From UHGV virus genome UHGV-1364187: DNA of 64,000 nt; one strand, written 5' to 3'. The DNA is from a virus. The notes beneath the pieces are model-generated. The model had not been told where the DNA came from, searched no databases, and worked only from the letters and a program-made list of their open reading frames with translations. Made by a program: the position numbers and the translations under genes. This document shows, one piece after another, positions 3,112 through 38,363 of the stretch (positions are counted from its first letter, which is position 1; each line of letters begins with the position of its first letter).

Positions 3112-3162
3112 TGTAATATCTCCTTTCATTGTATTATAATTAACTAGATGTTGCCAAAATAG

Positions 3163-3196: not shown

Positions 3197-3202
3197 CCGT
3201 AT

Positions 3203-3841
3203 CTATAGAAATCTATATGTTATATATACATCTATTACAATTTTCTTCTTTTTATATACAGTAAACTTACTAGTGAAATATTTCAATTTATCTGTAGATT
3301 TATCATTATATATACTTAATGATAGTTTATCTCCTTTATTTATTGGTAATAATCCTTTATATAATGACATGATGTATCCATTCTTTCTATACATAACTAC
3401 TCCATCTTTAGCAAGCATTGATGATAATCTAACAATATCAGGATCATCTGTTATGTCATCATAAAAATGATCATATTTTACAAAATTAGATAATTTATAT
3501 ATTAGATTTATTCCATCTGGAGGAACAACTATATTCATTATAATAATAGGTTGACTCTCTCCATTTAACCATATATACAAATTACCATACATATCCATAT
3601 CTACACTAAATAAGTTCTTATCACATATTGCATATATATCAGGTATGAAATAACAATATATCAATCCATTATTAAATTCATCTAAGATAAATTCAGTTGT
3701 TTTTGCATATGAAAATAACTTATTTGATGATACTAAAGATGATCCGTGGATCATCAATATATCATCTGATTTAAGAATTTTTAGAATATCTATAATTGAA
3801 TTAACGGTTTGATTTTGCAAAGTTTTCATCGTAGTATTCAT
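3203..3841 (-). CDS. hypothetical protein
   Basis: 212-aa ORF that overlaps the upstream polB fragment by 41 nt. Confidence 0.5.
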   Translation of the reverse strand: MNTTMKTLQNQTVNSIIDILKILKSDDILMIHGSSLVSSNKLFSYAKTTEFILDEFNNGLIYCYFIPDIYAICDKNLFSVDMDMYGNLYIWLNGESQPIIIMNIVVPPDGINLIYKLSNFVKYDHFYDDITDDPDIVRLSSMLAKDGVVMYRKNGYIMSLYKGLLPINKGDKLSLSIYNDKSTDKLKYFTSKFTVYKKKKIVIDVYITYRFL

Positions 3842-9706: not shown

Positions 9707-12352
9707 TTAGTATTTATATATAATGTTACTTTCAGGATATTCATCATCAGATTTAAGTAAAATAAGATCAATATTATTGTATGGAATTTCTTGATTATGA
9801 GAAATCATAATAACTTGTTCTAATCCTAATTCATCGATCATTTTATACATTACATCTATAAATCTTCGCCTATTATGACTATCTAATTGTCCATCAGCTT
9901 CATCCAATTCAAATATATTATACTTAGTTGATGATTGATATAATATGCTGAATGACAATATCATAGATACAATAGCTTCTTGTCCAGATGACATAGAACT
10001 TACATCATCATGTGGCAATGTACCACCAATACATGGTATTTTGAATTCATTTTCATCTATATTAAATGGTAATAATGAATATTCTCCATCAAATACTATA
10101 TCCATTAGACTATTAGCTATATTTAATGTAGAATTTGAATATAAAGCCATAAACACTAACCCTATTCCTTTAGTTGGAGAACAATGTTTCTTTATGAGTT
10201 CTATCTTAGCATATTTAGTATTATATTCTTCTAATTCTACTAAATATCCTTCTAATAATTTAAGACTATGTCTTAATGTATCTCTATCATCTATAAGAGG
10301 TTTTATGACATTATTAATCTGATCTAGTTTTATCTTAGTTTGTTCTATAAGATTTAAATTTTGTTGAATAATTTGCATAGATGATTGTAAAGTATACACT
10401 TTTGAATTTAAATCTGATATTTGATTTTCTATATTATCGTATTCTTGTTTATATGATAACACTTTTTGAATTTGTTCTAATAACGTAGTCTTTGTATTGT
10501 AATTTGATCTTAATTCGTTAAGTTTATCATTATTATCACTTATCTTTATATCAATTCCATTAATATCTTCAAATAATATAGATATAGATTTCTCTATATA
10601 TAATATCATATCTTTCTTTGAAGATAATTGTTGATATTGAACATTAAGATTATCTAATCTAGATTTAGTATTTGTATACAATAGAAGAATACTACTATCT
10701 TCCATATATTTATGAATAAGATCTACTTCTTTATTCAGATAATAATAATTCTGTATACATGATATTACATCTATAGATATATTAACTTGATCTAGAATGG
10801 TTTTATAATTATTAACCATTCTATTACATATATCTATATCATTCTTACATTTGATAATCTCTATATTCTTAACTTTATCTGAGTATAGAGATTGTAGTTT
10901 GATATCAAGTTCTTTTTTCTCTAATTCTAATCTATCTATATTTTCTTGTGGATTTTGATTTAGAGCATCTATAGCACTCTTAATAAATGGGCAAGAATCT
11001 ATATTACAATTAGATGGTCTATTATCTAATACTTTTATGATATCCAATAATGTATTGTATCTTGTAATTTCATTTGATATGAATACTAGTCTACTTTCAA
11101 TATTAGATATATCTTTATCATAATCTATATTGGATATATTATCTATAGATTGTATAACATCAACTGTATATTTATCTCTTACCATAGATATATTATTAAC
11201 AATATCTGATAATATACTAAGAACAGATTGTAAGAATTCTATTGTAAATCCTCTATCAACAATAGACTTCTCTTTTATAATATCATCATATTGTTTAACT
11301 TCTTCTGTTAATGTTTTAATCTCATTTTCTAATTGATTATAATCATATTCAGATTGTAAAGATGCAATTTCTGTTTGATGTTTCTGTAATTCATTACTTT
11401 TAGATTCTCTATTAGATAATAAAGACATATTATTATTCTCTAATATTTTAATTTCTGTATTAAGATTTGTTATTTCATTTGATGTGTTTGAATATAAATT
11501 ACTTATACCTTTAAGATCGAAGTTGTATGATTTACATATAGAAACAATCTGATTAGCAACAGATTTCTTATTATTAGTAATTTCCATCAATGATGTACAT
11601 AAAGAATTATATGTTTCTTGTATGGACCCATCTGGATCATTCAATTGAATAATACTTTTATATTTTGCTAATTCTTCTACAATAAGATCTTTCTCGTACA
11701 TAGCTTTATTTAATCTTTCTTCAACTCCAGTTAAAGAGTTAGTAAGATATTCTCTATCTCCAATAGAAGAGATTTTAGCTGTTGTAGAATTTATAAACGA
11801 TTTAAATATAGAAGATCTCTTTACTAGAACTTTATACATATCATTATAATCTGTAAGCTCTGTAATAATAGAGTTCATGAATTTCTTTCTTTCACTTGGA
11901 GTCATACTAACTATACTTCTACATCTTTGTCCTAATTTACTTAATATAAGAAAGTTAGCATCTAAACCAAGTTCATTATATAAAGCTTCTTTATATGAAT
12001 TGACATTAAGGTTTGGATTAAGATCTATTAGTTCACCATCATCATTTAGTTTATGAAAATGAATCTTTGTTGTATCCCTTAATCCATTGCTCTTTACATT
12101 GTATAATATCTTTATGAAATATTGATTATCTATATCGATCTCTTTACATGCTGGAATTTCTGGAATTAAACTACTACTATCATCTGGCAAAGGATTAATA
12201 GCATTTAGTAATGATGATTTACCAGTTCCATTCATACCAGCTATAACAATTATTTTGTTTATAGATTTCGATAAATCTATTTCAATTTCATCTAAATTAA
12301 GTCCGTTCTTTATACCTATAAAACCAGTTAATTTAACTCGTGTATATCTCAT
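9707..12352 (-). CDS. Rad50/SbcC-like ATPase (T4 gp46-like recombination/repair ATPase)
   Basis: N-terminal Walker A GMNGTGKSSLLNAI, about 600 aa of coiled-coil-like sequence, then C-terminal ABC signature SGQEAIVS and Walker B/D-loop IFELDEADGQLD. Confidence 0.8.
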   Translation of the reverse strand: MRYTRVKLTGFIGIKNGLNLDEIEIDLSKSINKIIVIAGMNGTGKSSLLNAINPLPDDSSSLIPEIPACKEIDIDNQYFIKILYNVKSNGLRDTTKIHFHKLNDDGELIDLNPNLNVNSYKEALYNELGLDANFLILSKLGQRCRSIVSMTPSERKKFMNSIITELTDYNDMYKVLVKRSSIFKSFINSTTAKISSIGDREYLTNSLTGVEERLNKAMYEKDLIVEELAKYKSIIQLNDPDGSIQETYNSLCTSLMEITNNKKSVANQIVSICKSYNFDLKGISNLYSNTSNEITNLNTEIKILENNNMSLLSNRESKSNELQKHQTEIASLQSEYDYNQLENEIKTLTEEVKQYDDIIKEKSIVDRGFTIEFLQSVLSILSDIVNNISMVRDKYTVDVIQSIDNISNIDYDKDISNIESRLVFISNEITRYNTLLDIIKVLDNRPSNCNIDSCPFIKSAIDALNQNPQENIDRLELEKKELDIKLQSLYSDKVKNIEIIKCKNDIDICNRMVNNYKTILDQVNISIDVISCIQNYYYLNKEVDLIHKYMEDSSILLLYTNTKSRLDNLNVQYQQLSSKKDMILYIEKSISILFEDINGIDIKISDNNDKLNELRSNYNTKTTLLEQIQKVLSYKQEYDNIENQISDLNSKVYTLQSSMQIIQQNLNLIEQTKIKLDQINNVIKPLIDDRDTLRHSLKLLEGYLVELEEYNTKYAKIELIKKHCSPTKGIGLVFMALYSNSTLNIANSLMDIVFDGEYSLLPFNIDENEFKIPCIGGTLPHDDVSSMSSGQEAIVSMILSFSILYQSSTKYNIFELDEADGQLDSHNRRRFIDVMYKMIDELGLEQVIMISHNQEIPYNNIDLILLKSDDEYPESNIIYKY

Positions 12353-12414
12353 TATAAGCACCTCTTTTCGTTATTATAGATAAGTTAACGATACAATAAA
12401 AATATAAAGAGAGA

Positions 12415-15464: not shown

Positions 15465-15543
15465 ATAAATTCCTCCTTTAAGATTAGAAATTATATAATT
15501 GTTATAGATTGGATAAGTATCTATATAGATACTTATCCTTTTA

Positions 15544-17265
15544 CTATTTTTCTATATATGCTGGTACGAATGTTCCTGGGATAATTAAAGAATTTTCTTC
15601 TACCTTCCTCACATAATCTACAGTATTCTGTAGACAACATGCAGCTTCTTTCAGAATTTCAATTTCTTCATCATCACCTTGCCCAAGAACTTTCTTCTTA
15701 AATGTTGCACCTTCAACAAGCCCTACAGATTCTTTATATAGATTCATTAATTCACTAAATTTTTCTTCCCAAGAATTTGGTTCTTCAAAATCTTTAAAGA
15801 ATCCATCTTCTCTTAGATTAGAATATGGAGTAATATTTCCAGTTAATCCTGGATTAGAATCACTACTTGAACATGTATCAATATTACATAAGTTAGATAC
15901 ATCCATACGCCTTTGAATTTCAGATACATTAGAGCCAGTCTTTTCTCCAATACCAGATATACCTTTATAACTAAATTTAGTACAGAATATAGCATCATCT
16001 TCGTTAACACTATTTCGATAATTTACTAAACTACATTTTGTAATCTGTGATAATAGATAGTTTGGAGAAATATTGATAGCTTTTCTTATAGTAGAAATAG
16101 TTGCACGTTTACCACTTACTGAAATACGCTTAATACCATTAGATAATTTTATAGCATATAAAGATGCTAGATATTCATCTAATCTTACTCTCTTTAATGA
16201 TGAATCTTGGTTATCTTTCATCATAAGATCAGAGAAGTTTCTAATCATCCATAGTAATACTTTATAAATATCATCTTTATACTCTAAAGGTAATTTAATA
16301 GCAGCTTTTGTAGATGGATCGTAAATACCTTCTAGAGATTCTAACAGTTTAACACCTTTTTCATGACTGTATTTAGTGAGAGTTACATCATTATCCAAAC
16401 GATCTATCCAGTAATCTATAGTAAACAGATCTTCATATACTACATCTTTGTTAATCACTTTTAAGATTGTATATATAAGAGATTGTGTTACATAATCACT
16501 ATCGAATATCATTTTTGGAACTTGAATATAAATCTCATGTTTTTCAAATATATACATATTAGAATTATCATCTGGTTTGTCTTTTAATACCTTTATGCAA
16601 CCAATACCAGATTGCATAAAAGTACCCATCAAACCAAACTTAGCTAATAGATATTTGAATACTATAATATTCCTATTGAATATATTAGATGAATATAATA
16701 CAATAGGAAGTTCTTCACCATCAATAGTAGTCAATTTATTATGGAATCTAAATATCTTAATAGGCATAAATATAGTCTTTTGTGTTGTTGAAGCACATTT
16801 GGCATTAGTATTAGCATTATTATATGTGCTACCATCTACTATCTGAAACATTGGTAAATAGTAATTTCCTTGTAATTCAAAGTAATATTTATCTGTATAT
16901 CTTGGTAAATTAATAAGTACATCCAAATCTTCATACTTATCTCTAATACCAATTGTATAGTGCACAATCATAAGTCTAGTCTTAGAATTTCTAATTGGAA
17001 TATAATCATAGATATTTTCAATAGGTTTAGATATCCTATCAATCCTATCTTGTTCATATTTTCTCATAGTATTATAGATTTCTATTGGACTATCGATGAC
17101 TTCAAATGAATTTACTTTAATAGTGAAATATTTATCACGTTGACAAGTGAGAATTACATTCTGTAATTCTCTTACTATATTATCATCATTTCTTTGAAAT
17201 AGTTGCGGATTGAATCTTTCCCTTTCATCAAATGAGTAATTGTATAAAAGTTCAGGAATGTTCAT
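15544..17265 (-). CDS. multisubunit RNA polymerase beta subunit, N-terminal/middle fragment
   Basis: C-terminal part RRMDVSNLCNIDTCSSSDSNPGLTGNITPYSNLREDGF aligns with bacterial RpoB [40 protein letters not shown]. The ORF ends near the E. coli approximately-580 equivalent. Confidence 0.65.
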   Translation of the reverse strand: MNIPELLYNYSFDERERFNPQLFQRNDDNIVRELQNVILTCQRDKYFTIKVNSFEVIDSPIEIYNTMRKYEQDRIDRISKPIENIYDYIPIRNSKTRLMIVHYTIGIRDKYEDLDVLINLPRYTDKYYFELQGNYYLPMFQIVDGSTYNNANTNAKCASTTQKTIFMPIKIFRFHNKLTTIDGEELPIVLYSSNIFNRNIIVFKYLLAKFGLMGTFMQSGIGCIKVLKDKPDDNSNMYIFEKHEIYIQVPKMIFDSDYVTQSLIYTILKVINKDVVYEDLFTIDYWIDRLDNDVTLTKYSHEKGVKLLESLEGIYDPSTKAAIKLPLEYKDDIYKVLLWMIRNFSDLMMKDNQDSSLKRVRLDEYLASLYAIKLSNGIKRISVSGKRATISTIRKAINISPNYLLSQITKCSLVNYRNSVNEDDAIFCTKFSYKGISGIGEKTGSNVSEIQRRMDVSNLCNIDTCSSSDSNPGLTGNITPYSNLREDGFFKDFEEPNSWEEKFSELMNLYKESVGLVEGATFKKKVLGQGDDEEIEILKEAACCLQNTVDYVRKVEENSLIIPGTFVPAYIEK

Positions 17266-17883
17266 CTATTCTTCATCCTCTCCAATATAATTCAATGGAA
17301 TTTTTATCTCTCTTCCAATTGGATTTGGTGCACCAGGTTTATCTTCTATAATAAGTGTTACATTCATATCTAAATTATCAGATATACTCTTTAATTTAGG
17401 AAATGTAATACTATTAGAGTTTGATATAATACGTTTATCATTATTAAAAGAAGCACCAAATCTATCTTGATATTTGTCTATATCAATATGCTTCTCAATA
17501 ATAGCCTGTCTTAAACCTGCCATCTCTGGTGTATCGTCTTGATTAATCTTAGGAACATAGGCTTCTGTAGAAGAACTTATAACTTCACTCTCTAGTTCTT
17601 TTAACATATGATTCATTTGAATAAGTTCTTTCATATTTTCACAATCATCAAAATTTAATATATTTGATGACATATATGGTTCTTGATTTTGTTCTTGTGG
17701 TTTAATATAATAAGAACCAACTGGATTAGAATAGAATCCAGGTAATACTCCACCTGCACCTAAATATGGTAATATATAATCTCCACATTGTACAGCCACA
17801 TCACCACGTTGATATTGATTATGGATATTGTTATTGTTAGTAACTACATCATAAATCCTATTGTTCAATTTTATCTTTTTCAT
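17266..17883 (-). CDS. hypothetical protein
   Basis: 205-aa ORF. Its stop abuts the start of the RNAP beta N-fragment. Confidence 0.5.
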   Translation of the reverse strand: MKKIKLNNRIYDVVTNNNNIHNQYQRGDVAVQCGDYILPYLGAGGVLPGFYSNPVGSYYIKPQEQNQEPYMSSNILNFDDCENMKELIQMNHMLKELESEVISSSTEAYVPKINQDDTPEMAGLRQAIIEKHIDIDKYQDRFGASFNNDKRIISNSNSITFPKLKSISDNLDMNVTLIIEDKPGAPNPIGREIKIPLNYIGEDEE

Positions 17884-17898
17884 TATAAAATCCTCCTT

Positions 17899-17943
17899 GA
17901 AAAAATAAATCTCGCATATAATAACTAAGATTATATGCGAGAT
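17899..17943 (-). terminator. rho-independent terminator
   Basis: 13-bp perfect stem atctcgcatataa/ttatatgcgagat, followed on the minus strand by ttatttttttc. Confidence 0.7.
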
Positions 17944-17963
17944 AATATGTTTATAAAACCTGA

Positions 17964-18563
17964 TTAAGCAACTTTTTCTGATGCATCAGATTTTACTTTT
18001 TGACGAATTTCTTCATCTGGAATTACACTGAATACTTTATGTCCTTCTTCAAATGCAACTTGTGCTGTGAAATATCCATCACATTCAAGTTCAACAACTT
18101 CTGAATCTTTTGCATTTACATCAAGCCATTTATATAGTTCATCTGCAAATACACTAAACATATCTACTAAGAAGCATGTTTGATTGAATTTTAATCCTGT
18201 TTCTTTGAATGAAGAAGATAATGCTACATTTTGGAAGAATGAGTCATGGATTGTATACACTTGACAATCTTCAATATCTTTAGGATCAAATGTAAATGTT
18301 AAAGACCATTCTCCAGGAGCATCTTCTGTTTCTGCTGGAGTATAACTTACAATACCTGCAAATTTTGTTACATTTTCATAGTTTTGAATAGCTAATGCTA
18401 CTTTATTATCTTTTGATTTTACCATAGCTAAAAAGTCTGCAATAGATACAATGAATGATTGTGCTACAGGTGGACATGCCTGAGCTTCCCAAGATAAATT
18501 CTTTGTTTCTAAAGCCTTTACGTAATTCATTCCTAATGTACTTTCTGCTAATGTTTGTTTCAT
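17964..18563 (-). CDS. acidic hypothetical protein
   Basis: 199-aa ORF with a strong RBS and its own terminator. Confidence 0.55.
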   Translation of the reverse strand: MKQTLAESTLGMNYVKALETKNLSWEAQACPPVAQSFIVSIADFLAMVKSKDNKVALAIQNYENVTKFAGIVSYTPAETEDAPGEWSLTFTFDPKDIEDCQVYTIHDSFFQNVALSSSFKETGLKFNQTCFLVDMFSVFADELYKWLDVNAKDSEVVELECDGYFTAQVAFEEGHKVFSVIPDEEIRQKVKSDASEKVA

Positions 18564-18723
18564 AATAAATTCCTCCTATTTATAAAAGATTATATTTTTT
18601 TAAGTAATATTCATTACTTATACACCTTAATAATATATAATTGAAATTTATATTACTCTGGTATTTTTTCTAATTACAATATAGTTTACTTGCAGTTAAA
18701 GTTTTAATATAAAGAATAGTATA

Positions 18724-21042
18724 CTAAGAAAGTATACTATTCATATTTGCAAGAAATTCTTCTAGAGTTATAATAGGAATGCCATATTTCTGTGCTGATA
18801 TTATTTTTGTAGATGGATTGTTAAATGCATCAATATTAACTACGATAAGTAAATCAGTATCTCTAGTTACAGATTTATCACTTATATCGTGTCCTAATGA
18901 TGTTACTAGATCAACTAATTCTTTATCTCTAAAGCCAGTAAATCTAATCTTCTTTCCACCACATGCATATCCAAAAGAAGATCTCATATTAACAAACGTT
19001 TTCTCTATATACATTAAATCTTCTATAAAGAATATACGTCTATCAATTACAGTTTTTGCTTTTACTTTTCCAATACCTTTGATATTGACTAATCTATTAT
19101 ATAAGATATCATCTGGAAGATTTATTATATCGTGTAATGTTATCTTATTAAGTATAAGCTTCCATGTTTCTTCAGCCATACTATCAAATCCTATAGCTCC
19201 TACAATCTGATAGTCCCATATATTAGATTCTTTTAATGCTTCTCTTTGAGCTATGAATTTATCCGCCATTATAGAACTATTAAGAGCATTTACTATAATA
19301 TCTCTATCGAGTTCCATTAATTTATTGAAAGAGAATACATTAGTTTTCAATACACTTGCTTCTGCAAATTGATCTATTCCTAACTTATCTAGCATATTAA
19401 CAGTTCTTGCAACTATTCTTCCTTTACATGCTAAATTTTTACAATATGCAGATGCACCAGATTTTGATATCTCTAATGGAGAACCACATACTGGACAGTG
19501 TGTTGGAAATGGAATAGGTGGAGTTACACTATCTATTTCATCATTATAACTATTATTAGGCTTAGTTACATATGGCATAACATCATTTACATACTCTACA
19601 TCTATAATATTACCCTCTCTTAATCCCAATTCCATAAATCTTTCATAAGAATGACCAGATGATTTAGGATGAATAGTTCCCATAAATTCAACTGGTTCGT
19701 AATGTATCATAGGTGTAATATATCCATCTTGTCCAACTGTATAAGTATATCCTTTAAATATAGTAGATTTCTTTAATGGATTAAACTTAACAGCTTGAGC
19801 ATATTTATTAACAGCATTTTCTCTACCCAATGCATGTTTGATATCTTCATCCATATATTCTATAACTACACCATCATATTGGAAATCGATATAATCTCTC
19901 ATCATTTCAGCTTCTTCAACAAACTTCTTAATTTGATATAAGATAGAAGTAAGATTTCCACTAATGATAGTATAGGTATTATATACACCTCTAGTATAAT
20001 ACTTATTAAGAAATTCTAACTGTTCATTTTTAGGTATATCTAATGAACACGCTAATGGTACTAATGTTACATATTCCATATATTTCCATGCATCTGAAGA
20101 TGAAAATAGACCACTAATAGCAGATCTGCAGTTCTTATAATTATATCCTTTAGCTTGATTGAATCTATATAGATTACTATATGTCATAATAGCCTCAAAC
20201 TGTACACCAAAATCTTCTTCTAATGGAATATTTTGTGGTGCATTAGGAAATATATAATTTCTCATAATAGGAGTTAAATCTGCAGCTTCGCCACCTATGG
20301 CATCCCCTCTTGATGTGAATAATCTACTTACCATAGAACCTTCGACAGATACTCCATCAAATTTAAGCATAAGTAATACATTAATAATTCTATTAGGATC
20401 TAGTATACCACGTTTAACATGTTCTCCAAAGAAATCCCTTTCTAATACTCTTACATTAGAATCATCAAATACTCCTAGTTCTTTTGCTTGATAATTCATT
20501 ACATGTTTACATTTTTCAAGAGTACCAACAAGATTTGGATATTGATGAGCTGTATTTCTCTTTCTTTTATCTATATTATTAGCAAATATAGCTGGAACTC
20601 TCATACATTCTCGTCTTGTTATTGGTGGTTGAAATAATAGCATATCAGTATATAATAAATCTTCATCATTAAGAATATCATTTACAAATACAGCTGGAGT
20701 AATCATATCAACTATATCATTTTTAACAAAGTTCTCATCTTTTGTTTGTATAGGTTTTCCTCCAACAGGTGCAATATATCCATGATTGACATATGATTCT
20801 CTTAATAAATCATACATTCCATCTTCTAATACTAATCCTTCACCATAGTTTTCCCATACAGTATTACAATACTCTAATATAGTTTGTGATATAGATGCAT
20901 CATCATTTTCCCATGCATTATTTAATAAATACATTACTGCATCATTTAATATTCTTTTTGCTAATGGATTTATACTTCCATTAAGATATAGGTCAGAACA
21001 AATCTGACCTATATTATTATAATATTCATTATTAGTATACAT
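18724..21042 (-). CDS. ligA: NAD-dependent DNA ligase (LigA-type)
   Basis: Adenylation motif KxDG within MLKFDGVSV. Cys4 zinc finger CPVCGSPLE...YCKNLACKGR. C-terminal BRCT-like region. Confidence 0.8.
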   Translation of the reverse strand: MYTNNEYYNNIGQICSDLYLNGSINPLAKRILNDAVMYLLNNAWENDDASISQTILEYCNTVWENYGEGLVLEDGMYDLLRESYVNHGYIAPVGGKPIQTKDENFVKNDIVDMITPAVFVNDILNDEDLLYTDMLLFQPPITRRECMRVPAIFANNIDKRKRNTAHQYPNLVGTLEKCKHVMNYQAKELGVFDDSNVRVLERDFFGEHVKRGILDPNRIINVLLMLKFDGVSVEGSMVSRLFTSRGDAIGGEAADLTPIMRNYIFPNAPQNIPLEEDFGVQFEAIMTYSNLYRFNQAKGYNYKNCRSAISGLFSSSDAWKYMEYVTLVPLACSLDIPKNEQLEFLNKYYTRGVYNTYTIISGNLTSILYQIKKFVEEAEMMRDYIDFQYDGVVIEYMDEDIKHALGRENAVNKYAQAVKFNPLKKSTIFKGYTYTVGQDGYITPMIHYEPVEFMGTIHPKSSGHSYERFMELGLREGNIIDVEYVNDVMPYVTKPNNSYNDEIDSVTPPIPFPTHCPVCGSPLEISKSGASAYCKNLACKGRIVARTVNMLDKLGIDQFAEASVLKTNVFSFNKLMELDRDIIVNALNSSIMADKFIAQREALKESNIWDYQIVGAIGFDSMAEETWKLILNKITLHDIINLPDDILYNRLVNIKGIGKVKAKTVIDRRIFFIEDLMYIEKTFVNMRSSFGYACGGKKIRFTGFRDKELVDLVTSLGHDISDKSVTRDTDLLIVVNIDAFNNPSTKIISAQKYGIPIITLEEFLANMNSILS

Positions 21043-21539
21043 TAGATATCAATCCTTTCTAGTGTAGAAAAATACATACTATAATGTTTATCCTGTGTTA
21101 CATGATAAGTTTCGTCTGTTATAACCCACTTATCTCTAGTTAATCTATCTGCTGGAAAGTAAGTATCGCCATCAAAGAATTCATCAAATTTTGTTACGAA
21201 AATTCTCTTAGTATAATCTAAGAATTCTCTATATACCCATCCTCCTCCAATAATAAAAATATCATCATCAGGATTTTCACAATCTAATAACAATATATCA
21301 TTTACAGAATGAACAACTTCTACACCAGGAATCTTTATATCTTTATGACTTAATACTATATTTCTTCTATCTGGCAATGGTCTACCAATACTTTCATAAG
21401 TCTTTCTTCCCATCACTACAGTATGACCTGTAGTGATGTCTTTAAAATGTTTTCTATCTTCTCTAACTATTCCCCAAGGTAATTCATTATCTCTACCTAT
21501 TATCATATTTCTAGATATAGCAACAATCATATTAATCAT
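21042..21539 (-). CDS. folA: dihydrofolate reductase
   Basis: MINMIVAIS-x-N-x-IG-x-DN-x-LPW...VVMGRKTYESIGRPLP-x-R-x-NIVLS is the classic DHFR fingerprint. The start was trimmed to the Met behind GGAGAG. Confidence 0.8.
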   Translation of the reverse strand: MINMIVAISRNMIIGRDNELPWGIVREDRKHFKDITTGHTVVMGRKTYESIGRPLPDRRNIVLSHKDIKIPGVEVVHSVNDILLLDCENPDDDIFIIGGGWVYREFLDYTKRIFVTKFDEFFDGDTYFPADRLTRDKWVITDETYHVTQDKHYSMYFSTLERIDI

Positions 21540-21993
21540 TATAATCTCTCCAATCTTTAACAATATATCCAGGAATAAATGTAGCTGGAATATTATTTGG
21601 TTTTATTTCTGCTGGTACAAGACAATTATTATATAATGCTCTTTCTTGCTCCAACATTATTTGAGCTGGAGTGTACATTCCTTCCTTATTAGGAGCTATA
21701 TTATTTGTATCTATAGCTGGAACAAAATATGCTGGTCTTATTCTCTGAACTAATGTCTTCTTAAATACCATTCTTAAGCCTATAGCTTTAAGATAAGTAT
21801 GCATAATTTGTGCAGTTATATTATTAGTTTCATTATCTATTTGTACATCCACGTTATATGGATCATCAGTAAGAATATTCTTAGCTAATCTTCTACCATG
21901 TGTACTAGCACTATTGATAAGTAGCATTACTAATAATAACTCAGCATCTACGTGCATTAAATTTGAAGCTTCCATAGACCCACCACTACACAA
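21532..21993 (-). CDS. RNA polymerase beta subunit C-terminal fragment, exon 2 (after the intron)
   Basis: GGSMEASNLMHVDAELLLVMLLINSASTHGRR aligns with RpoB [31 protein letters not shown]. The true exon start is about 21,985-21,993. Confidence 0.6.
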   Translation of the reverse strand: MCSGGSMEASNLMHVDAELLLVMLLINSASTHGRRLAKNILTDDPYNVDVQIDNETNNITAQIMHTYLKAIGLRMVFKKTLVQRIRPAYFVPAIDTNNIAPNKEGMYTPAQIMLEQERALYNNCLVPAEIKPNNIPATFIPGYIVKDWRDYND

Positions 21994-22470
21994 ATTGTGT
22001 AGCAGACTATATCACCACCATATACTTTAAAAAAGTACTTAGGTGCCTCCCATTTCGGATATACTATATCCTACTCTACTCACTTCGTCTATATCTAATT
22101 TATTAGATATACCTTATTTTTAACTAGATTACTAGTATATTAGCTTTCGATAGTCGTTGAACTTTAATCTTTGAATATAGTTTTATATTTATATATTATA
22201 TTTGATATTATTCAAAGATTCTTAGCTGCTGATTGTAGATCTGTTACGTTAACTTAGCACCTATTATTGAATAGGCTTTTATCTCAGCATATCAACACAG
22301 AATCAATTTTTTCTGTCTTTCGACGACATTCACACCCATCCTTACGGATCATGTTGTAGTTTGATTCTGAATAACTACTTCCCAGACAAATTAAAGAGGT
22401 TTTTACTTCTATCTTTTTCAAGATAAAAGGCACATGTATGTCTATGCAACTGGTGTACGACTGTATGGTG
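21990..22470 (-). ncRNA. group I self-splicing intron without an ORF, in the RNAP beta gene (boundaries approximate)
   Basis: Minus-strand R element gttcaacgacta (22151-22162), Q aatcagcagc (22226-22236), S gatatagtctgc (22002-22013), P-like aatttgtctggg (22381-22392) and P9 hairpin ctacacaaattgtgtag. The G+C content is higher than in the flanks. The RpoB homology resumes immediately after. Confidence 0.7.
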
Positions 22471-24220
22471 ACTCGTATAATTTACTTGCACGAGATCTTG
22501 TATTTTGCCCTCTTACATTAGTTGCTGATAAAGATGTTGTTGAGAATTTCTCTTCTGCAACTTGTTTTAATCTGTAATAATATATATGACCAGCAATAAG
22601 TTTTCTTCTAGTAGGTATGGCTCTATAATTACCCATAGAATCTTTTTGTTGAATCATAACTGTATAAGGTTCGATCCAATCAAAATGTTTATACATTTGA
22701 TCTAATAAATCTATACCATATGATTCTGTTATAGGTTCTATTTGGAAATGAATACAATCATAAGACTTGATACTGTCTAAGAATAATTTCTTATCTTGTT
22801 CTGACATATTGTCTACTATATTTTTTGTATATCTGTACATATTAGGACTTACAAAAGATAAGAAATCAAAGTACATTTGAAACGCTTCTTCATCTGTGCA
22901 TAATGGAGATCTCATTCTTTCTATAATTCTAGAACTTATAAAATTAGATTCCATTTCAATATGTTGTCCAGGATTAAGACGTCCTACTATACCTGCAGAA
23001 TTCCATATTGCGTCTGCATGTTTTCCATTGTCAAATAAAGGCATTAATTCTTCTGGTAAGAATCCAGCAATAACACCTTTACCTCCATATCTATTAGTAA
23101 TCTTATCACCAATTTGTATACGACTAACTTCATATACCATGAAATCAATTACTAAGAAAGAGAATTCATTATCTTTTTCATTCAAGAAATGTTGTCCGTC
23201 TAATATTCTCTTATGAAATAGATATAACTCTTCTAAGTCATATGATTTTTTAATACTTTTATCATTTACAATTGGTTCTAATACATTAACTATTTCTCTA
23301 GAGAATCTTTGTTGATTCATATAAATCATAGCTAATTGAGAGTATTTAGAATCTGTAAATAGTAATTCTGGATCGTTACAATATATATCACAATCTATTA
23401 GTACACCTGACCCTATTGTAACTTTAACATCAGAAGTCATTATTTTTCTTAATCTATCTTGGCTTGCAGAATAAAATTGTTCTTCATTTTTCTTTAGACG
23501 AGTACCCATAAGAATACCATCTTTTACCTCTTCTCCTACAAAAGGACATACTTTATAACTACCATCTTTACCATAAAGATTCAATGGAACGTTATTAGTA
23601 TTTATACTTATACGTTTTGGTTTGAATACTGGAGTATCAAATTTTGGACGAACAGCTTCGCTTAGAATAATACCATCTTCGCAAGTCTTAGCTATATTCA
23701 TAAATACTCCATTAAGATTTATACCATCCATCTTATTACCATAATCATCATAAGATGAGCTTTTTCTTATTACATCACCTTGTTTAATTACATCACCAAC
23801 TTTTTTACTATCCATATATTTATTATTATACTTATATCCATTTGTTTCTGTAAGATAATTATAATCTACTCTATGATATATAGTATAAGAATTATTAGTT
23901 GGATTGCGTAATATAAGAATATAATCATGTTCTGGTAAATGTTCAAATTTTGATATCTTAGCAACTATCTCATATTCCATATCAGCTAACAATACAGCAC
24001 TATTATATCTACCATATTCATTAGCATATCCAGTATCACAGAATGCGATTTCTGAATTAATAAGATCTGTTCTATGATCATTATGAACATTATACATCTT
24101 CTTTCTTGATGCTGCATTATGATTATTGAACGGTTCTTTCAATCCTTTAGACAATACGTAATCTAATTTCTTTGGAACGTATTGATCTATTCTTGTTAGT
24201 GGATCTGTTATTATTGCCAT
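22442..24220 (-). CDS. RNA polymerase beta subunit C-terminal fragment, exon 1
   Basis: GINLNGVFMNIAKTCEDGIILSE matches the RpoB GxN..VAFMPW.GYNFEDAI block. GDKITNRYGGKGVIAGF matches GDKxxGRHGNKGV, and NPGQHIEME is also present. The last roughly 20 codons before the stop at 22442 are intron-encoded. Confidence 0.7.
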   Translation of the reverse strand: MAIITDPLTRIDQYVPKKLDYVLSKGLKEPFNNHNAASRKKMYNVHNDHRTDLINSEIAFCDTGYANEYGRYNSAVLLADMEYEIVAKISKFEHLPEHDYILILRNPTNNSYTIYHRVDYNYLTETNGYKYNNKYMDSKKVGDVIKQGDVIRKSSSYDDYGNKMDGINLNGVFMNIAKTCEDGIILSEAVRPKFDTPVFKPKRISINTNNVPLNLYGKDGSYKVCPFVGEEVKDGILMGTRLKKNEEQFYSASQDRLRKIMTSDVKVTIGSGVLIDCDIYCNDPELLFTDSKYSQLAMIYMNQQRFSREIVNVLEPIVNDKSIKKSYDLEELYLFHKRILDGQHFLNEKDNEFSFLVIDFMVYEVSRIQIGDKITNRYGGKGVIAGFLPEELMPLFDNGKHADAIWNSAGIVGRLNPGQHIEMESNFISSRIIERMRSPLCTDEEAFQMYFDFLSFVSPNMYRYTKNIVDNMSEQDKKLFLDSIKSYDCIHFQIEPITESYGIDLLDQMYKHFDWIEPYTVMIQQKDSMGNYRAIPTRRKLIAGHIYYYRLKQVAEEKFSTTSLSATNVRGQNTRSRASKLYESPYSRTPVA

Positions 24221-24301
24221 GTTTCTTCTCCTCCTTGAATGTTTAATATATGATAGATATAAGAAAAAGTTCATTATATCTATCATATATATAATATATA
24301 A

Positions 24302-24763
24302 TTATGCGACGTTTTGGATCATAGATAATATGTCATCTGTAGATGATGTTAACCCTACTTCATCTTCTTCTGGTTCTTCATAAGTATCAGATAGCATAGA
24401 TTTCATCTCTTCTAAGACAATTGTATTAAATACTGATCTAAACTCTGAGTCTGTATTAAGTTTATTCTTAAATTGTTTTTGAGAGAATTTCATATCACTT
24501 CTATCACCTAGGTACAAATATGCACCTGCACCATTAAGAACTCCACGTTGTTTTAAGAACATAAACATTGATAAATCTGCATCAAATCCATCACTTTGAC
24601 TAAATACTAATGGAACAGATTGACCAGCTTTATTTGTTCTTGATTTAACAAGTGTTACCTCTGTAATGTTTCCGTCTAAGTCGAATACTTCTCCTTCTTT
24701 TAACTTAGATCCATCATCAAATCTAATAATATTATTTGCTAAGTATATAGGTGTATTGCCGCC
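24302..24763 (-). CDS. RecA/UvsX-like recombinase, exon 2
   Basis: GGNTPIYLANNIIRF matches RecA GGNALKFYASVRLDIRR and UvsX GGGTGPMYSADTVF. Confidence 0.6.
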   Translation of the reverse strand, partial: GGNTPIYLANNIIRFDDGSKLKEGEVFDLDGNITEVTLVKSRTNKAGQSVPLVFSQSDGFDADLSMFMFLKQRGVLNGAGAYLYLGDRSDMKFSQKQFKNKLNTDSEFRSVFNTIVLEEMKSMLSDTYEEPEEDEVGLTSSTDDILSMIQNVA

Positions 24764-24766
24764 CAT

Positions 24767-25150
24767 AATTTTATATTACATACGATCGCTACTCGTATTC
24801 TATAATTTTCATTATAGATTAGACTATATCTTCATCCTTATTATTAAGGAGCACTCCATTTCGAATACGCTTGTATTCTACTCTATTTCTAGATAGTCGT
24901 TGAACGTTCTTCTCATATAAGAAGCTTCGCTGCTGATTGTCCATTACAAATAAGACTTAGGATTTTGTCCATATCTCATACTAACCGCTTTTTTCTACTT
25001 TCGTAACCATCACGCTTATCTTTACAGATTACGTTGTGGTGGGTTAGTCTTTAGGAGTTCCCAGCAATTAAGAGTGTTTCCTAAATGCTCATTACTGAAC
25101 ATTCTCCCCAGTTATGCAATACGTTTAGGGAGTGATTCGTCAACCTTCAA
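24767..25150 (-). ncRNA. group I self-splicing intron without an ORF, in the recA-like gene (boundaries approximate)
   Basis: R gttcaacgacta (24894-24905), Q aatcagcagc (24929-24939), S gatatagtct (24821-24830), P aattgctggg (25060-25069) and P9 hairpin with a GAAA loop (24800-24817). It is homologous in sequence to the intron at 21,990-22,470. Confidence 0.7.
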
Positions 25151-25909
25151 ATATGATACTTGTGCTTTCTTACGTTGAGCAGGTGTAATAGCAACTGCTT
25201 GTGTAATATGATTGATTACAAATAAGATAATATTAGCAGCTTTTAATAATGGAATAATAGTTCTAAAGATCTTAGCATTAGCTTTAGCTGTTGCTGTTGT
25301 ACTCATCTGTCCTGACATTTCTTCTTCGTCAGAAAATTTCTCAGGCATTAATAATGCTAATGAATCTAAAATAACTACTGTAGGCTGTAATTTGTATAGC
25401 CTATTACCAAATTCATCATATAAACCAGTATCATATTCAAACTCACTTCTATTAGCAAGTTTGATATCACTAATCATCTTGATTCTTTGGAAGAAGTTTT
25501 CACATGTGATACCAGTATTTCTATGAATATATTTATCTTTAGCCTCTTCAGGTGTCATTTTAGCAAGTTTAAATAGTCTACTATTACTAATACCACCCTC
25601 AATATCTTCATGATATATAGCAGCATTAGGAAATGGTTTAACAATATTTCCAGCTGCTTGAATAGTCCATGTAGTTTTACCACATCCAGATCTACCAATA
25701 ATCATTACCATTGATCCATCTGCAATTCCAATAGAATAATATTGATATTGCTGACCGTCTGGAGTTTTTCCAATAGCTACAGTACCATTTCTAAAATCAA
25801 ATGTAAGAAATCCAGTTGAATATCCAACAGGTGTTTCTGTTTCAACTTTCATTCTATAATCTTTAGATTTTTCTACAGATTTTCTAAACATATCTACCAA
25901 TAAGCTCAT
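25112..25909 (-). CDS. RecA/UvsX-like recombinase, exon 1
   Basis: Walker A GRSGCGKTT, Walker B VVILDSLALL and INHITQA (RecA INQIR, UvsX INHT). The C-terminal approximately 15 codons are intron-derived and the stop lies inside the intron. Confidence 0.7.
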   Translation of the reverse strand: MSLLVDMFRKSVEKSKDYRMKVETETPVGYSTGFLTFDFRNGTVAIGKTPDGQQYQYYSIGIADGSMVMIIGRSGCGKTTWTIQAAGNIVKPFPNAAIYHEDIEGGISNSRLFKLAKMTPEEAKDKYIHRNTGITCENFFQRIKMISDIKLANRSEFEYDTGLYDEFGNRLYKLQPTVVILDSLALLMPEKFSDEEEMSGQMSTTATAKANAKIFRTIIPLLKAANIILFVINHITQAVAITPAQRKKAQVSYLKVDESLPKRIA

Positions 25910-27050: not shown

Positions 27051-28238
27051 CTATAGTTCTTTTCCAGTTGAAGTATTAACTAGGATTGATTTTGGACTTG
27101 ATTGTTCATTGTTAATTGTTTGAGTTTTATTTGGTTCACTTGATTTCTTTTTATTCTTAAAGAAACCAGGTTTAGTTGTTCTTACATTAAACTCATCTTC
27201 TTCAATTTCCATTTTGTTAATATCACTATAGAATGAATCTTGAGTTTTATTAACTCTACTTGCAACTTCTTGATATTTTGTATAAATATCTTGAAGTTCT
27301 TTTACTGGTAATTTTAATCCAGCGATAATAATAATAGCATATTGATCTTCGCCATCTAATACTGGTTGAATATGATCGTATGCTTCATATGGTTCTCCAA
27401 CAACATCTTTAATTGCTCTATAAGAGTAATCAATGATATTCTTTGTTTCTTCATTGATATTCCATACAACACCAATACGTTTGCATGATGGTTGTTCAAT
27501 ATCAATTGATTTTGTATTTTGGATAGCTTTAACTAATAAGTCATCTAACTGTTCTTGAGTTTTAATATCTCTTCCGATAGATACTTTTTCAATTAAACTA
27601 TATCCAGGATTGTTGATAAGTTTAAAGTGGTCTGTATCATCAATATTTTGACTTCCTTCTCTTAATACTGAACCAGTAATAACTTTAAGCTCTTCTACGA
27701 ATAATTCATTAGCCATCTTTTCAGCTGCAACTTTATTACCTTTAGCATCTGATAAGAATTTTGCATTACTAATAGTATGAACTACGTATTGTGGTAAGAA
27801 TTGTTTAAATAGATTAACTGTATTTCCTAATCCTCTTGCATCTGCATGGAATCCCATTAATGGGAATTGATGTACTGTGATGCCTGTATTTTCTGTAATG
27901 TAGTTTCCTAATACAGGAGCACCACCACATCCAGTTCCACCTTCAGCACCAAATACAATTACAACTGCATCGTCATCTTCTTCTAAGAATTCTGGTAATA
28001 ATTCTTCTAATTCTCCACCATTAAGAGATTGCTCCATCATATCAGCACCAAGTTTTGTTTCTTTACCTGCACCATTAATGTCTCCAATGATGATTGAAAT
28101 ATCTCTATACTCTACTGGGATGTCTTTGTCAGTGCTATTGATAAGTTTAACATATTCTCTAGATATTGCACCTTTTTCAATTGCATCAATACTTGCTTTG
28201 TTTCCTGCTGCACCAACACCGAATAATTTTGTTTTCAT
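27051..28238 (-). CDS. tubulin/FtsZ-family GTPase (phage PhuZ/TubZ-like)
   Basis: Glycine-rich N-terminal loop GVGAAGNKA (FtsZ GVGGGGNNA). Tubulin signature GGGTG(S/T)G within GAEGGTGCGG. Long charged C-terminal tail. Confidence 0.7.
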   Translation of the reverse strand: MKTKLFGVGAAGNKASIDAIEKGAISREYVKLINSTDKDIPVEYRDISIIIGDINGAGKETKLGADMMEQSLNGGELEELLPEFLEEDDDAVVIVFGAEGGTGCGGAPVLGNYITENTGITVHQFPLMGFHADARGLGNTVNLFKQFLPQYVVHTISNAKFLSDAKGNKVAAEKMANELFVEELKVITGSVLREGSQNIDDTDHFKLINNPGYSLIEKVSIGRDIKTQEQLDDLLVKAIQNTKSIDIEQPSCKRIGVVWNINEETKNIIDYSYRAIKDVVGEPYEAYDHIQPVLDGEDQYAIIIIAGLKLPVKELQDIYTKYQEVASRVNKTQDSFYSDINKMEIEEDEFNVRTTKPGFFKNKKKSSEPNKTQTINNEQSSPKSILVNTSTGKEL

Positions 28239-28381
28239 AATAAAAATCCCTCCTAAAATATTATATATTATATAATCATGTGTTATAATATATTTTGAAA
28301 TTTAACACATGATAAGATTAGATAATAGATTAAGCTCTATTATCTAATCTTCATTCACTATTATAATATATAATTATAATT

Positions 28382-33483: not shown

Positions 33484-33535
33484 TTCAATTATATATTATA
33501 TATATGAATATAATATTAAAGGAGAGTGTTTTATT

Positions 33536-34814: not shown

Positions 34815-34972
34815 GATTTAAAACAACTGCAAACTATACAGTAATTATAGTTTGCAGTTAATAAAAAAGTGATAGTAAACAAAATTTCAATTATATATTA
34901 TTAACGTGTAAACAAGTAGTTAATCAACTACATTGTATAAAAATAATTTAAAATTTCAAGGAGGAATTAATT

Positions 34973-38351: not shown

Positions 38352-38363
38352 GAGGAAACAGAA

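What the first reader, a model, noticed from the sequence alone, without database searches (positions are those of the whole stretch)
15544..24286. Multisubunit RNA-polymerase beta subunit split into two non-adjacent genes
15544-17265 carries the RpoB fork/[13 protein letters not shown]-equivalent region. The gene at 22442-24220 plus 21532-21993 carries GxNxxVAFMPWxGYNFEDAI, GDKxxxRxGxKGV and the C-terminal GEME block. Ligase, DHFR and two unknown genes sit between the two fragments. Split beta and beta' genes are the hallmark of the phiKZ-like and AR9/PBS1-like rifampicin-resistant phage RNA polymerases, which have virion and non-virion forms. The catalytic loop here reads NRYGGKGV rather than the cellular GRHGNKGV.
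Basis: partly seen in the sequence, partly recalled or inferred. Interest (0 to 1): 0.7.

Follow-up and report, generated by a model that had tools for sequence, protein, structure and literature searches.

The report
Split phage RNA polymerase beta, intron-interrupted
This giant-phage fragment encodes the second-largest subunit of the phage's own RNA polymerase as two separate genes, as in Bacillus phage AR9, and the C-terminal gene is further interrupted by a self-splicing group I intron; both features are already known in this phage group.

Summary
ORF 15544-17265(-) is the N-terminal half of an RNA polymerase beta subunit. It matches AR9 gp105 (PDB 7S00 chain c, E=4e-40), and its AlphaFold model matches 7S00_c, the phiKZ nvRNAP and then bacterial beta subunits. 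ORFs 22442-24220(-) and 21532-21993(-) together make the C-terminal half (AR9 gp089, 7S00 chain C, E=1e-75; Pfam Rpb2_6).

Gene order matches AR9: uvsX, beta-C, ligase, beta-N. This is the AR9/PBS1-type non-virion RNA polymerase beta split, on a 256.5-kb metagenomic jumbo-phage contig about 30% identical to AR9.

Excising it gives ...YSRTPVAC GSME..., the same length as intron-less relatives (TPVQLGNME).

Relatives carry the same intron with an HNH/NUMOD4 endonuclease ORF, inserted 7 nt upstream, with a compensating guide-sequence change. The neighbouring uvsX gene holds a second group I intron (Rfam 80 bits).

Split beta genes, intron-disrupted RNAP genes and the TATATTAT early promoter are all published for AR9-like phages. 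This is a new member of a known kind. The beta' genes lie outside the window and were not seen.

The parts
15544..17265 (-). beta-N gene (573 aa), orthologue of AR9 nvRNAP gp105
   Evidence: PDB 7S00_c E=4e-40. AF2 plus Foldseek: 7S00_c at 4e-25, 9rjs_E at 5e-12, bacterial beta at about 1e-7. 100% identical to P0241 on the 256,505-bp contig.
15511..15538 (.). 12-bp palindromic hairpin 6 nt after the beta-N stop codon, terminator-like
   Evidence: It was scored on the + strand; the stem is self-complementary.
17266..17883 (-). 205-aa ORF of unknown function abutting the beta-N start; conserved in relative L004
   Evidence: No Pfam or PHROG hit. L004 has a 209-aa ORF in the same place.
17909..17943 (-). 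14-bp hairpin plus T-run between the 199-aa and 205-aa ORFs
17964..18563 (-). 199-aa ORF of unknown function; conserved in L004
18630..18643 (-). CAATTATATATTAT, an AR9-type early-promoter-like motif heading the unit 199-aa ORF, 205-aa ORF, beta-N
   Evidence: Exact 14-mer, intergenic and correctly oriented. AR9 early promoters read A[AG]A[TA]ATATATTAT. The TATATTAT core is published (bioRxiv 10.1101/2020.12.14.422802).
18714..18742 (-). terminator-like hairpin at the ligase stop codon
18724..21042 (-). NAD-dependent DNA ligase (772 aa)
   Evidence: Pfam adenylation, OB, Zn-finger and BRCT domains. Syntenic with AR9 g095.
21042..21539 (-). dihydrofolate reductase (165 aa from ATG 21539), overlapping the beta-C stop by 8 nt
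   Evidence: Pfam DHFR_1 1.8e-49. Gene call of 165 aa in L125.
21532..21983 (-). beta-C exon 2 (GSME block to the C-terminus, including an extension of about 80 aa that AR9 gp089 lacks)
   Evidence: The alignment to 7S00_C runs across the junction to residue 663. Homologues P0002, P0003, P0006 and P0007 are continuous here.
21984..22443 (-). ORF-less group I intron, 460 nt (P1-P9 with extra hairpins between P7 and P3')
   Evidence: The Rfam RF00028 alignment is full-length but scores only 10.9 bits. The core motifs GUUCAACGACUA and GAUAUAGUCU are present. 74-83% nt identity to introns in L003 and L004 that carry an HNH ORF. MFE z=-3.96, and the fold recovers P1, P2, P3, P6, P8 and P9. Compensatory changes occur in P1 and P3.
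22444..24220 (-). beta-C exon 1 (592 codons plus the first base of the junction codon)
   Evidence: Pfam Rpb2_6 3e-14. PHROG 3295 3e-77. AR9 gp089 tblastn 9e-65. AAGGAGG Shine-Dalgarno sequence before ATG 24220.
24291..24304 (-). TAATTATATATTAT, an early-promoter-like motif 71 nt upstream of the beta-C start

Best explanation
The window comes from a jumbo phage about 256 kb long with about 28% GC, distantly related to Bacillus phage AR9/PBS1.

Like AR9, it encodes the beta subunit of its non-virion multisubunit RNA polymerase as two separate polypeptides.
- Beta-N carries the protrusion/lobe/fork half.
- Beta-C carries the catalytic GDK..R.G.KG loop and the GxME block.

The two genes sit in two adjacent, co-oriented transcription units.
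- Unit 1: promoter-like motif, beta-C, DHFR, ligase, hairpin.
- Unit 2: promoter-like motif, 199-aa ORF, 205-aa ORF, beta-N, hairpin.

The beta-C pre-mRNA contains a 460-nt ORF-less group I intron. It lies between the first and second bases of the codon two positions before the conserved Gly of GxME.
- The apparent stop codon ending exon 1 is made of the last exon base (U22444) plus the first two intron bases (AG).
- Self-splicing, with a U.G pair in P1 and terminal G21984, joins the exons into a 742-aa beta-C reading ...YSRTPVAC GSMEASNL....

The two beta fragments then assemble with beta'-N, beta'-C and a promoter-specificity subunit encoded elsewhere in the genome. Together these form the middle/late transcriptase.

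Shown here: the homology, the fold, the synteny, the intron anatomy and the exact in-frame junction. Inferred: splicing in vivo, early transcription by a virion RNAP from the TATATTAT-type motifs, and assembly with beta' pieces that were not seen.
For: Identity of the two genes
- Beta-N and spliced beta-C match PDB 7S00 chains c and C at 4e-40 and 1e-75.
- Beta-C hits Pfam Rpb2_6.
- The beta-N AF2 model hits AR9, phiKZ and cellular beta subunits.
- tblastn best hits are the annotated nvRNAP beta-C and beta-N of AR9, PBS1 and Staphylococcus jumbo phages.
- No second place in AR9 reached E<1e-5. In the three AR9 stretches held locally, nothing but g089/g105 scored better than E about 1.
- Synteny with AR9 is conserved. 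It is also conserved in relatives L004 and L131.

The intron
- Intron-less relatives (P0002 at 71% identity, P0003, P0006, P0007) read TPV-xx-G[NE]ME.
- Only the junction U22444|...G21984 is in frame, keeps this length and keeps the conserved Gly. It also obeys the U(-1)/terminal-G rule.
- The free-energy fold independently forms P1 (GCAUA/UGUGC) at that site.
- L003 and L004 carry the same intron with an HNH_3+NUMOD4 ORF in the P6 loop.
- P1 changes from GCCU:GGGC to GCAU:GUGC, and P3 changes a U-A pair to C-G.
- Conserved intron segments are 74-83% identical to L004, against 67% for exon 1.
- The sister intron in uvsX scores 80.4 bits on Rfam RF00028.

Expression
- The 14-mer CAATTATATATTAT occurs 5 times at up to 1 mismatch, against 1.2 expected. 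All five are intergenic and correctly oriented, including upstream of both units.
- The 14-mer contains the published AR9/MarsHill early-promoter core.

Literature
- Split beta and beta' genes are described in PMC7598289.
Against: - The Rfam group I model gives only 10.9 bits (E=6.4) for the beta-C intron, far below the 50-bit gathering score. The long peripheral insertions explain this but do not remove it.
- No RNA data exist, so splicing is inferred.
- The beta' genes, the specificity subunit and the virion RNAP are not in the window. A search with AR9 gp270 did not retrieve a protein from this contig.
- The 9-mer ATATATTAT alone is not enriched: 23 found against 17 expected.
- The related L004 intron has no in-frame junction that obeys both the U(-1) and the terminal-G rule.
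Confidence: 0.82

Rival explanations
1. Beta is made in three polypeptides. The 460-nt spacer would be a dead intron or an ordinary intergenic region. Exon 1 would end at the TAG, and exon 2 would be translated separately from ATG 21975.
For: Gene callers annotate a separate 147-aa ORF. The published PB50 annotation lists four separate beta-C CDSs. Jumbo-phage RNAP subunits tolerate splitting, and intron loss has been proposed as the origin of such splits (PMC7598289). A GGTGGG run lies 3 nt before ATG 21975.
Against: ATG 21975 is simply the conserved Met of GxME. The GGTGGG run is too close to the ATG and unlike this phage's AAGGAGG sites.

The ribozyme core, the P1 U.G pair and the terminal G are all intact. 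Compensatory changes occur, and conservation is higher than in the exons. An exact in-frame junction restores the length seen in homologues. The closest relative has one continuous 743-aa gene.
Confidence: 0.08
2. The two genes encode beta fragments of the virion-packaged RNAP rather than the non-virion enzyme.
For: AR9-like phages encode both enzymes, and the two are homologous (PMC7598289). No proteomics is available for this phage.
Against: Both fragments align nearly end to end with the nvRNAP fragments gp105 and gp089, and the split site is the same. The review states that the vRNAP and nvRNAP beta split sites differ.

No other AR9 locus matched at E<1e-5. The genes sit in the AR9 nvRNAP synteny block, and a motif like the AR9 early promoter lies upstream, as expected for nvRNAP genes.
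Confidence: 0.04
3. The ORFs are decaying remnants (pseudogenes) of an acquired rpoB, and a functional full-length gene lies elsewhere.
For: About 192 kb of the source contig was not visible to me.
Against: The ORFs are intact and have hundreds of full-length homologues at 35-75% identity with the same split. The catalytic motifs are conserved. The AF2 model is confident. Strong ribosome-binding sites and tight operon packing are present.
Confidence: 0.02

Closest known systems
Bacillus phage AR9/PBS1 non-virion RNA polymerase beta fragments gp105 (beta-N) and gp089 (beta-C), PDB 7S00/7S01/7UM0/7UM1
   Same: The split site is the same. The alignments are end to end at about 30% identity. The gene order uvsX, beta-C, ligase, beta-N is the same. 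The catalytic loop reads ITGRYGNKGV in AR9 and ITNRYGGKGV here. A TATATTAT-type motif lies upstream.
   Different: Identity is only about 30%. AR9 gp089 is uninterrupted. Here beta-C has an intron and an extra C-terminal tail of about 80 aa, and beta-N has an extra helical hairpin plus tail of about 75 aa. DHFR lies between the genes here. AR9 has uracil-containing DNA and a Ugi gene next to gp105.
phiKZ non-virion RNA polymerase (PDB 7OGP, 9RJS)
   Same: It is a split beta/beta' multisubunit phage RNAP. Beta-C matches 7ogp_C at 2e-15, and the beta-N model matches 9rjs_E at 5e-12.
   Different: It is much more distant (14% identity for beta-N) and comes from a different phage family (Chimalliviridae, stated from my own knowledge).
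Introns in jumbo-phage RNAP genes: AR9 g270/g271, PhiPA3 gp210, MarsHill-like Staphylococcus phages, PB50, Internexus
   Same: AR9 nvRNAP beta'-N is annotated as two joined exons with an HNH/NUMOD4 homing endonuclease inside.

PhiPA3 gp210 is an HNH endonuclease in an intron within a vRNAP gene (PMC11620839).

Staphylococcus phage PB50 beta-C has a short intervening sequence with the same GUUCAACGACUA and GAUAUAGUCUA core, lying between TRTP and GEME. That is the same hot spot. Internexus beta-C is split around a 326-aa ORF.
   Different: The intron here has no ORF. The gene and the exact site differ from AR9 and PhiPA3. The insertion register differs by 7 nt from the closest related introns in L003 and L004.
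Phage group I introns of the T4 td / SPO1 type (Rfam RF00028)
   Same: P1-P9 architecture, a U.G pair at the 5' splice site, a terminal G, conserved J6/7-P7 and J8/7-P7' sequences, and insertion in a highly conserved coding site. In relatives the endonuclease ORF sits in a peripheral loop. The core 15-mer CAACGACTATCGAAA occurs in more than 120 viral contigs.
   Different: The score is below the Rfam threshold because of long P5, P6 and P7.x extensions. Assignment to subgroup IA rests on my own knowledge of the extra hairpins between P7 and P3'. It was not tested.

Membership tests
AR9-type nvRNAP beta-N (gp105-like) | Significant sequence homology over most of the length to gp105 | tested here: met
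   7S00_c E=4e-40, residues 90-497 against 71-480. tblastn to AR9 g105 at 9e-37.
AR9-type nvRNAP beta-N (gp105-like) | Fold of the N-terminal half of the RNAP beta/Rpb2 subunit | tested here: met
   AF2 pLDDT 82. Foldseek: 7S00_c at 4e-25 (TM 0.62/0.72), and bacterial, plastid, Pol I, Pol IV and vaccinia second-largest subunits at 1e-7 to 1e-4.
AR9-type nvRNAP beta-N (gp105-like) | Direct sequence or profile match to cellular RpoB families | tested here: not met
   No Pfam family at E<=1. A 3-sequence profile hits only 7S00_c in the PDB. The same holds for all 120 listed homologues, none of which has a Pfam domain, so this does not argue against membership.
AR9-type nvRNAP beta-C (gp089-like) | Rpb2 domain 6 with the GDK...R.G.KG catalytic loop and the GxME block | tested here: met
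   Pfam PF00562 at 3e-14. IGDKITNRYGGKGV and GSME are present. 7S00_C at 1e-75 across the junction.
AR9-type nvRNAP (whole enzyme) | Beta'-N (GD[YF]DGD), beta'-C and a gp226-like specificity subunit in the same genome | not testable with these tools
   Absent from the 64-kb window. The top 120 hits of the AR9 gp270 search contain no protein from the 256,505-bp contig. The rest of the contig cannot be read.
AR9-type nvRNAP (whole enzyme) | Not packaged in virions; expressed early; rifampicin-resistant | not testable with these tools
   Only an early-promoter-like motif upstream bears on this.
Group I intron (Rfam RF00028) | Score at or above the family gathering threshold | tested here: not met
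   10.9 bits against a 50-bit threshold for the beta-C intron. The uvsX intron 2.3 kb away scores 80.4 bits.
Group I intron (Rfam RF00028) | Conserved core: P3-P8, P7 guanosine-binding helix, J8/7 | tested here: met
   GUUCAACGACUA...GAUAUAGUCU are present. P3, P7 and P8 pair in all three homologous introns, with compensatory changes.
Group I intron (Rfam RF00028) | U.G pair at the 5' splice site in P1, terminal G, and an in-frame exon junction | tested here: met
   GCAU|A pairs with UGUGC, the intron ends at G21984, and the junction restores TPV-xx-G-x-ME.
Group I intron (Rfam RF00028) | Self-splicing activity | not testable with these tools
   Needs RNA data or an in vitro assay.
Mobile (homing-endonuclease-bearing) intron | An intron-encoded endonuclease ORF | tested here: not met
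   No ORF of 50 aa or more on the minus strand lies within 21984-22443. Homologous introns in L003 and L004 carry 332-aa and 279-aa HNH_3+NUMOD4 ORFs.

The most novel reading that the evidence does not exclude
The GxME-proximal site of beta-C may be an insertion hot spot where one lineage of group I introns has re-targeted itself between neighbouring registers.

Three registers are seen: after TP in L003 and L004, 7 nt downstream here, and after TPIRFG in L128. An unrelated short intron sits at the same place in Staphylococcus phage PB50.

The internal guide sequence co-varies with the new 5' exon (GGGC:GCCU becomes GUGC:GCAU). That would be a natural record of group I intron site-switching within an essential polymerase gene, for example by reverse splicing. 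The ORF-less copy here would be a derivative that lost its endonuclease.

A weaker possibility concerns the clade-specific hydrophobic P-x-x-F-x-P C-terminal tails on both beta fragments. These might help hold the split subunit together in an enzyme that lacks alpha subunits.
Probability: 0.3. Interest if true: 0.4.

Novelty: new member of a known kind. Interest (0 to 1): 0.27.

Why it matters
This adds a divergent, uncultured lineage to the AR9-like phages that carry their own split multisubunit RNA polymerase. The lineage is about 30% identical to AR9, with hundreds of metagenomic relatives.

It gives an exact exon-intron model for a gene that automatic annotation splits into 'RNA polymerase beta subunit' plus 'hypothetical protein'.

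It also supplies a small comparative series that could be used to study intron retargeting: an intron-less form, an ORF-less intron, an endonuclease-bearing intron, and three insertion registers.

It does not change how these polymerases are understood.

Tried and rejected
- Megablast of 15-25 kb against 50,697 phage genomes found no match. The phage has no close sequenced relative.
- The whole-window Rfam 'gathering' scan returned nothing. That was a filter false negative, because the uvsX intron scores 80 bits when scanned locally or in 'evalue' mode.
- Pfam and a small profile could not link beta-N to cellular RpoB by sequence. Structure prediction was needed.
- I considered splice junctions giving TPVGGSME or TPVGSME (exon 1 ending at U22449). 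I rejected them because they are one or two residues shorter than every intron-less homologue, and because the guide sequence pairs with GCAU, not CCAGU.
- Rfam's own P1 (GUACA/UGUGC, splice after CGU) would delete the conserved TPV, so I rejected it.
- The search for this genome's beta'-N with AR9 gp270 returned only AR9-proximal clades in the top 120.
- ORF 916-3129 was suspected to be the second half of the split DNA polymerase. It is the portal protein.
- The 9-mer ATATATTAT is not enriched overall. Only the extended 14-mer is.
- Sigma-70-like promoter matches are at chance level.
- AF2 of a full-length beta-C homologue gave low confidence from residue 554 onward. It says nothing about the tail motifs.
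- The tail motif is absent from beta'-N homologues and is not conserved in more distant beta-N tails.
- L128 gave no Rfam hit, because the contig ends inside the intron.

Full report
**What is there**

The window has about 28% GC and no nucleotide-level relative among 50,697 phage genomes. On the minus strand between 25.9 kb and 15.5 kb lies a tight co-oriented gene array:
- a uvsX-like recombinase
- an ORF of 592 codons (start ATG 24220, preceded by AAGGAGG)
- a 460-nt gap
- an ORF of about 150 codons
- DHFR
- an NAD-dependent ligase
- two unknown ORFs of 199 and 205 aa
- a 573-codon ORF

The exon-1 product and the 573-aa product are each 100% identical to proteins recorded on a 256,505-bp metagenomic contig, ena:ERZ27229639:k119_250412.

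**Checking the observation**

The 592-codon ORF hits Pfam RNA_pol_Rpb2_6 (3e-14) and PHROG 3295 'RNA polymerase beta subunit' (3e-77). It carries GINLNGVFMNIAKTCEDGIILSE and IGDKITNRYGGKGV.

The short ORF carries GGSMEASNL...HGRRLAKNILTDDPYNV, the GEME block.

The 573-aa ORF has no Pfam hit. It does match AR9 gp105, chain c of the solved AR9 non-virion RNA polymerase (7S00), at E=4e-40. An AlphaFold model built on 77 homologues has mean pLDDT 82. Its Foldseek hits, in order, are:
- 7S00_c at 4e-25
- the phiKZ nvRNAP chain 9rjs_E at 5e-12
- about 50 bacterial, plastid, Pol I, Pol IV and poxviral second-largest subunits

That test is passed: by sequence for beta-C, and by sequence to AR9 plus fold for beta-N. 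The intervening genes are as described.

**Which polymerase**

The best tblastn hits of both pieces are the annotated non-virion beta-C and beta-N of AR9, PBS1, Goe21, Internexus, Listeria phage LPJP1 and the Staphylococcus jumbo phages. Each record holds a single matching place.

Both alignments are nearly end to end: beta-N 90-497 against gp105 71-480, and beta-C 24-663 against gp089 20-645. The split site is therefore the AR9 nvRNAP one. The review PMC7598289 states that the vRNAP and nvRNAP beta split sites differ.

Gene order is also AR9's: g086 uvsX, g089 beta-C, g095 ligase, g105 beta-N. The same block occurs in two metagenomic relatives:
- L004 reads tubulin-like, uvsX, beta-C, ligase, 200 aa, 209 aa, beta-N.
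- L131 reads uvsX, beta-C, DHFR, ligase.

The beta-N search found 844 homologues. The 120 listed are 513-673 aa stand-alone proteins. The split is fixed in this large, mostly uncultured clade.

**The gap inside beta-C is a group I intron**

AR9 gp089 is one 665-aa protein. The closest relatives P0002 (71% identity, 743 aa), P0003, P0006 and P0007 are continuous and read ...SRTPV-xx-G[NE]ME....

In the window, exon 1 reads ...YSRTPVA-stop, and the downstream frame reads ...SGGSMEASNL. Only one junction meets all of these conditions:
- it is in frame
- it keeps the homologues' length
- it keeps the invariant Gly
- it has U as the last exon base and G as the last intron base

That junction is exon 1 ending at U22444, intron 22443 to 21984 (460 nt), and exon 2 from 21983. 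The product is a 742-aa protein with ...TPVAC GSME.... The TAG 'stop' is the exon U plus the intron AG.

The intron has the expected group I landmarks:
- P1: GCAU|A pairs with UGUGC, with the U.G pair at the splice site.
- A 10-bp P2.
- A long-range P3: CCUCUU pairs with GGGAGG.
- A 12-bp P6 with an AT-rich loop.
- The J6/7-P7 sequence GUUCAACGACUA and its partner GAUAUAGUCU.
- P8, and a 7-bp P9 ending 2 nt before the terminal G.

An unconstrained MFE fold recovers P1, P2, P3, P6, P8 and P9, with z=-3.96 against shuffles. Rfam RF00028 aligns over its whole length but scores only 10.9 bits because of long insertions. I count this as a failed formal threshold.

Independent support comes from homologous introns. 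L003 and L004 have 74-83% identical segments at the equivalent place. A 332-aa or 279-aa HNH_3+NUMOD4 endonuclease ORF sits in their P6 loop. Helices are maintained with compensatory changes:
- P1 changes from GCCU:GGGC to GCAU:GUGC.
- P3 changes a U-A pair to C-G.
- P8 has unrelated sequences that still pair.

Conserved intron segments are more similar to L004 (74-83%) than exon 1 is (67%). The core 15-mer CAACGACTATCGAAA occurs in more than 120 viral contigs. In the window it occurs exactly twice: here, and with 2 mismatches in the uvsX gap.

**Insertion register**

In L003 and L004 the intron follows ...ACG CCU (TP|). Here it lies 7 nt further downstream, and the guide sequence changes accordingly.

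P0119/L128 carries an intron with the same P5-extension sequences after TPIRFG. Its contig ends inside the intron.

Staphylococcus phage PB50 is deposited with beta-C as four CDSs. It has a short intervening sequence with the same core motifs between TRTP and GEME.

This conserved stretch is therefore a recurrent intron target. In L004, no in-frame junction satisfies both the U(-1) and the terminal-G rule. I could not resolve this.

**Expression**

The 14-mer CAATTATATATTAT occurs 5 times at up to 1 mismatch, against 1.2 expected. Two of 100 shuffles reached 5. All five are in short intergenic regions and point at the downstream gene:
- One lies 71 nt upstream of the beta-C start (24291-24304).
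- One heads the unit of 199-aa ORF, 205-aa ORF and beta-N (18630-18643).

The 14-mer contains TATATTAT, the published AR9/MarsHill early-promoter core read by the virion RNAP. Terminator-like hairpins follow the ligase, the 199-aa ORF and beta-N.

I infer two early transcription units. This is suggestive only: the 9-mer alone is not enriched, and there are no RNA data.

**What could not be shown**

No beta' catalytic motif occurs in the window. A database search with spliced AR9 gp270 returned only AR9-proximal clades among its top 120 hits, none from the 256,505-bp contig.

The presence of beta' pieces, of a gp226-like subunit and of a virion RNAP is therefore inferred from the family pattern. 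A full-length rpoB elsewhere is not formally excluded.

**Comparison with what is known**

- Split beta and beta' genes in two RNAP sets are the textbook feature of AR9- and phiKZ-like jumbo phages (PMC7598289).
- Introns in these genes are also documented. AR9 g270 (nvRNAP beta'-N) is annotated as two joined exons around the HNH/NUMOD4 endonuclease g271, and the intron splits the GDYDG|D catalytic motif.
- PhiPA3 gp210 is an intron-encoded HNH endonuclease in a vRNAP gene that acts in phage-phage competition (PMC11620839).

The finding is therefore a new, divergent member of a known kind. Its modest points of interest are the exact intron model, the register shift and the clade-specific C-terminal tails.

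**Scores**

Interest is 0.27. The most novel reading not excluded is retargeting of one intron lineage among neighbouring registers of an essential polymerase gene, with a possible assembly role for the tails. I put its probability at about 0.3 and its interest, if true, at about 0.4.

Noticed in passing
window 24302-25909 (-); intron 24764-25126: The uvsX/RecA-like gene is also split by a 363-nt group I intron (Rfam RF00028, 80.4 bits, E=6e-21). The spliced junction ESLP|GGNT aligns without a gap to AR9 gp086 ESIPGGTS. L004 and L131 have an intron at the same site.
   Followed up: yes
window, whole: The default whole-window Rfam 'gathering' scan missed the 80-bit uvsX intron. It appears only in a local scan or in 'evalue' mode. 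Negative gathering scans on AT-rich 64-kb windows should not be trusted for group I introns.
   Followed up: yes
window 15544-15582 (beta-N C-terminus) and 21532-21780 (beta-C tail): Beta-N ends in IIPGTFVPAYIEK. Beta-C has an extension of about 80 aa that AR9 gp089 lacks, containing RPAYFVPAI and IPATFIPGYIV. Similar P-x-x-hydrophobic-x-P motifs sit at two fixed positions in about half of the beta-C homologues. Both tails are disordered in AF2 monomer models. Function unknown.
   Followed up: partly
window 18630-18643(-), 24291-24304(-), 28363-28376(-), 33486-33499(+), 34888-34901(+): The 14-mer CAATTATATATTAT recurs in intergenic regions and contains the AR9-type early-promoter core TATATTAT. 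Every copy points at the downstream gene. 5 found against 1.2 expected.
   Followed up: partly
window 27051-28238 (-): A tubulin/FtsZ-like ORF (Pfam Tubulin 8.9e-5, below the family cut-off), reminiscent of PhuZ of nucleus-forming phages. A 395-aa ORF with a weak Tubulin hit sits in the corresponding place in relative L004.
   Followed up: no
window 21042-21539 (-): A DHFR gene overlaps the beta-C stop codon by 8 nt and is also present in the closest relative (L131). AR9/PBS1 replace thymine with uracil, so a folate-cycle enzyme hints that this lineage may make thymidylate. If so, it would not use AR9's uracil-dependent late promoters.
   Followed up: no
window 916-3129 (-) and 3801-5744 (-): ORF 916-3129 is the portal protein (AR9 portal, 25% identity). 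ORF 3801-5744 has the family B polymerase exonuclease domain and only the start of the polymerase domain. [quoted passage not shown]
   Followed up: partly
L004 11798-13202: In the related endonuclease-bearing intron, the only in-frame 3' junction compatible with a U at the 5' splice site follows an A, not a G. This could be an assembly error, a non-canonical terminal nucleotide or a defective intron.
   Followed up: partly
L130 (Staphylococcus phage PB50, OR770614.1) 1534-4196: The deposited annotation lists four separate 'non-viral RNA polymerase beta subunit' CDSs. At least the last gap contains group I core motifs, so these are probably exons of one gene.
   Followed up: partly
window 9707-12361 (-), 35964-40727 (+), 57745-61118 (+): An SbcC/Rad50-like ATPase, uninterrupted gyrB and gyrA genes (AR9 gyrA is reported to carry introns), and two Kelch/NANM-repeat proteins.
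   Followed up: no
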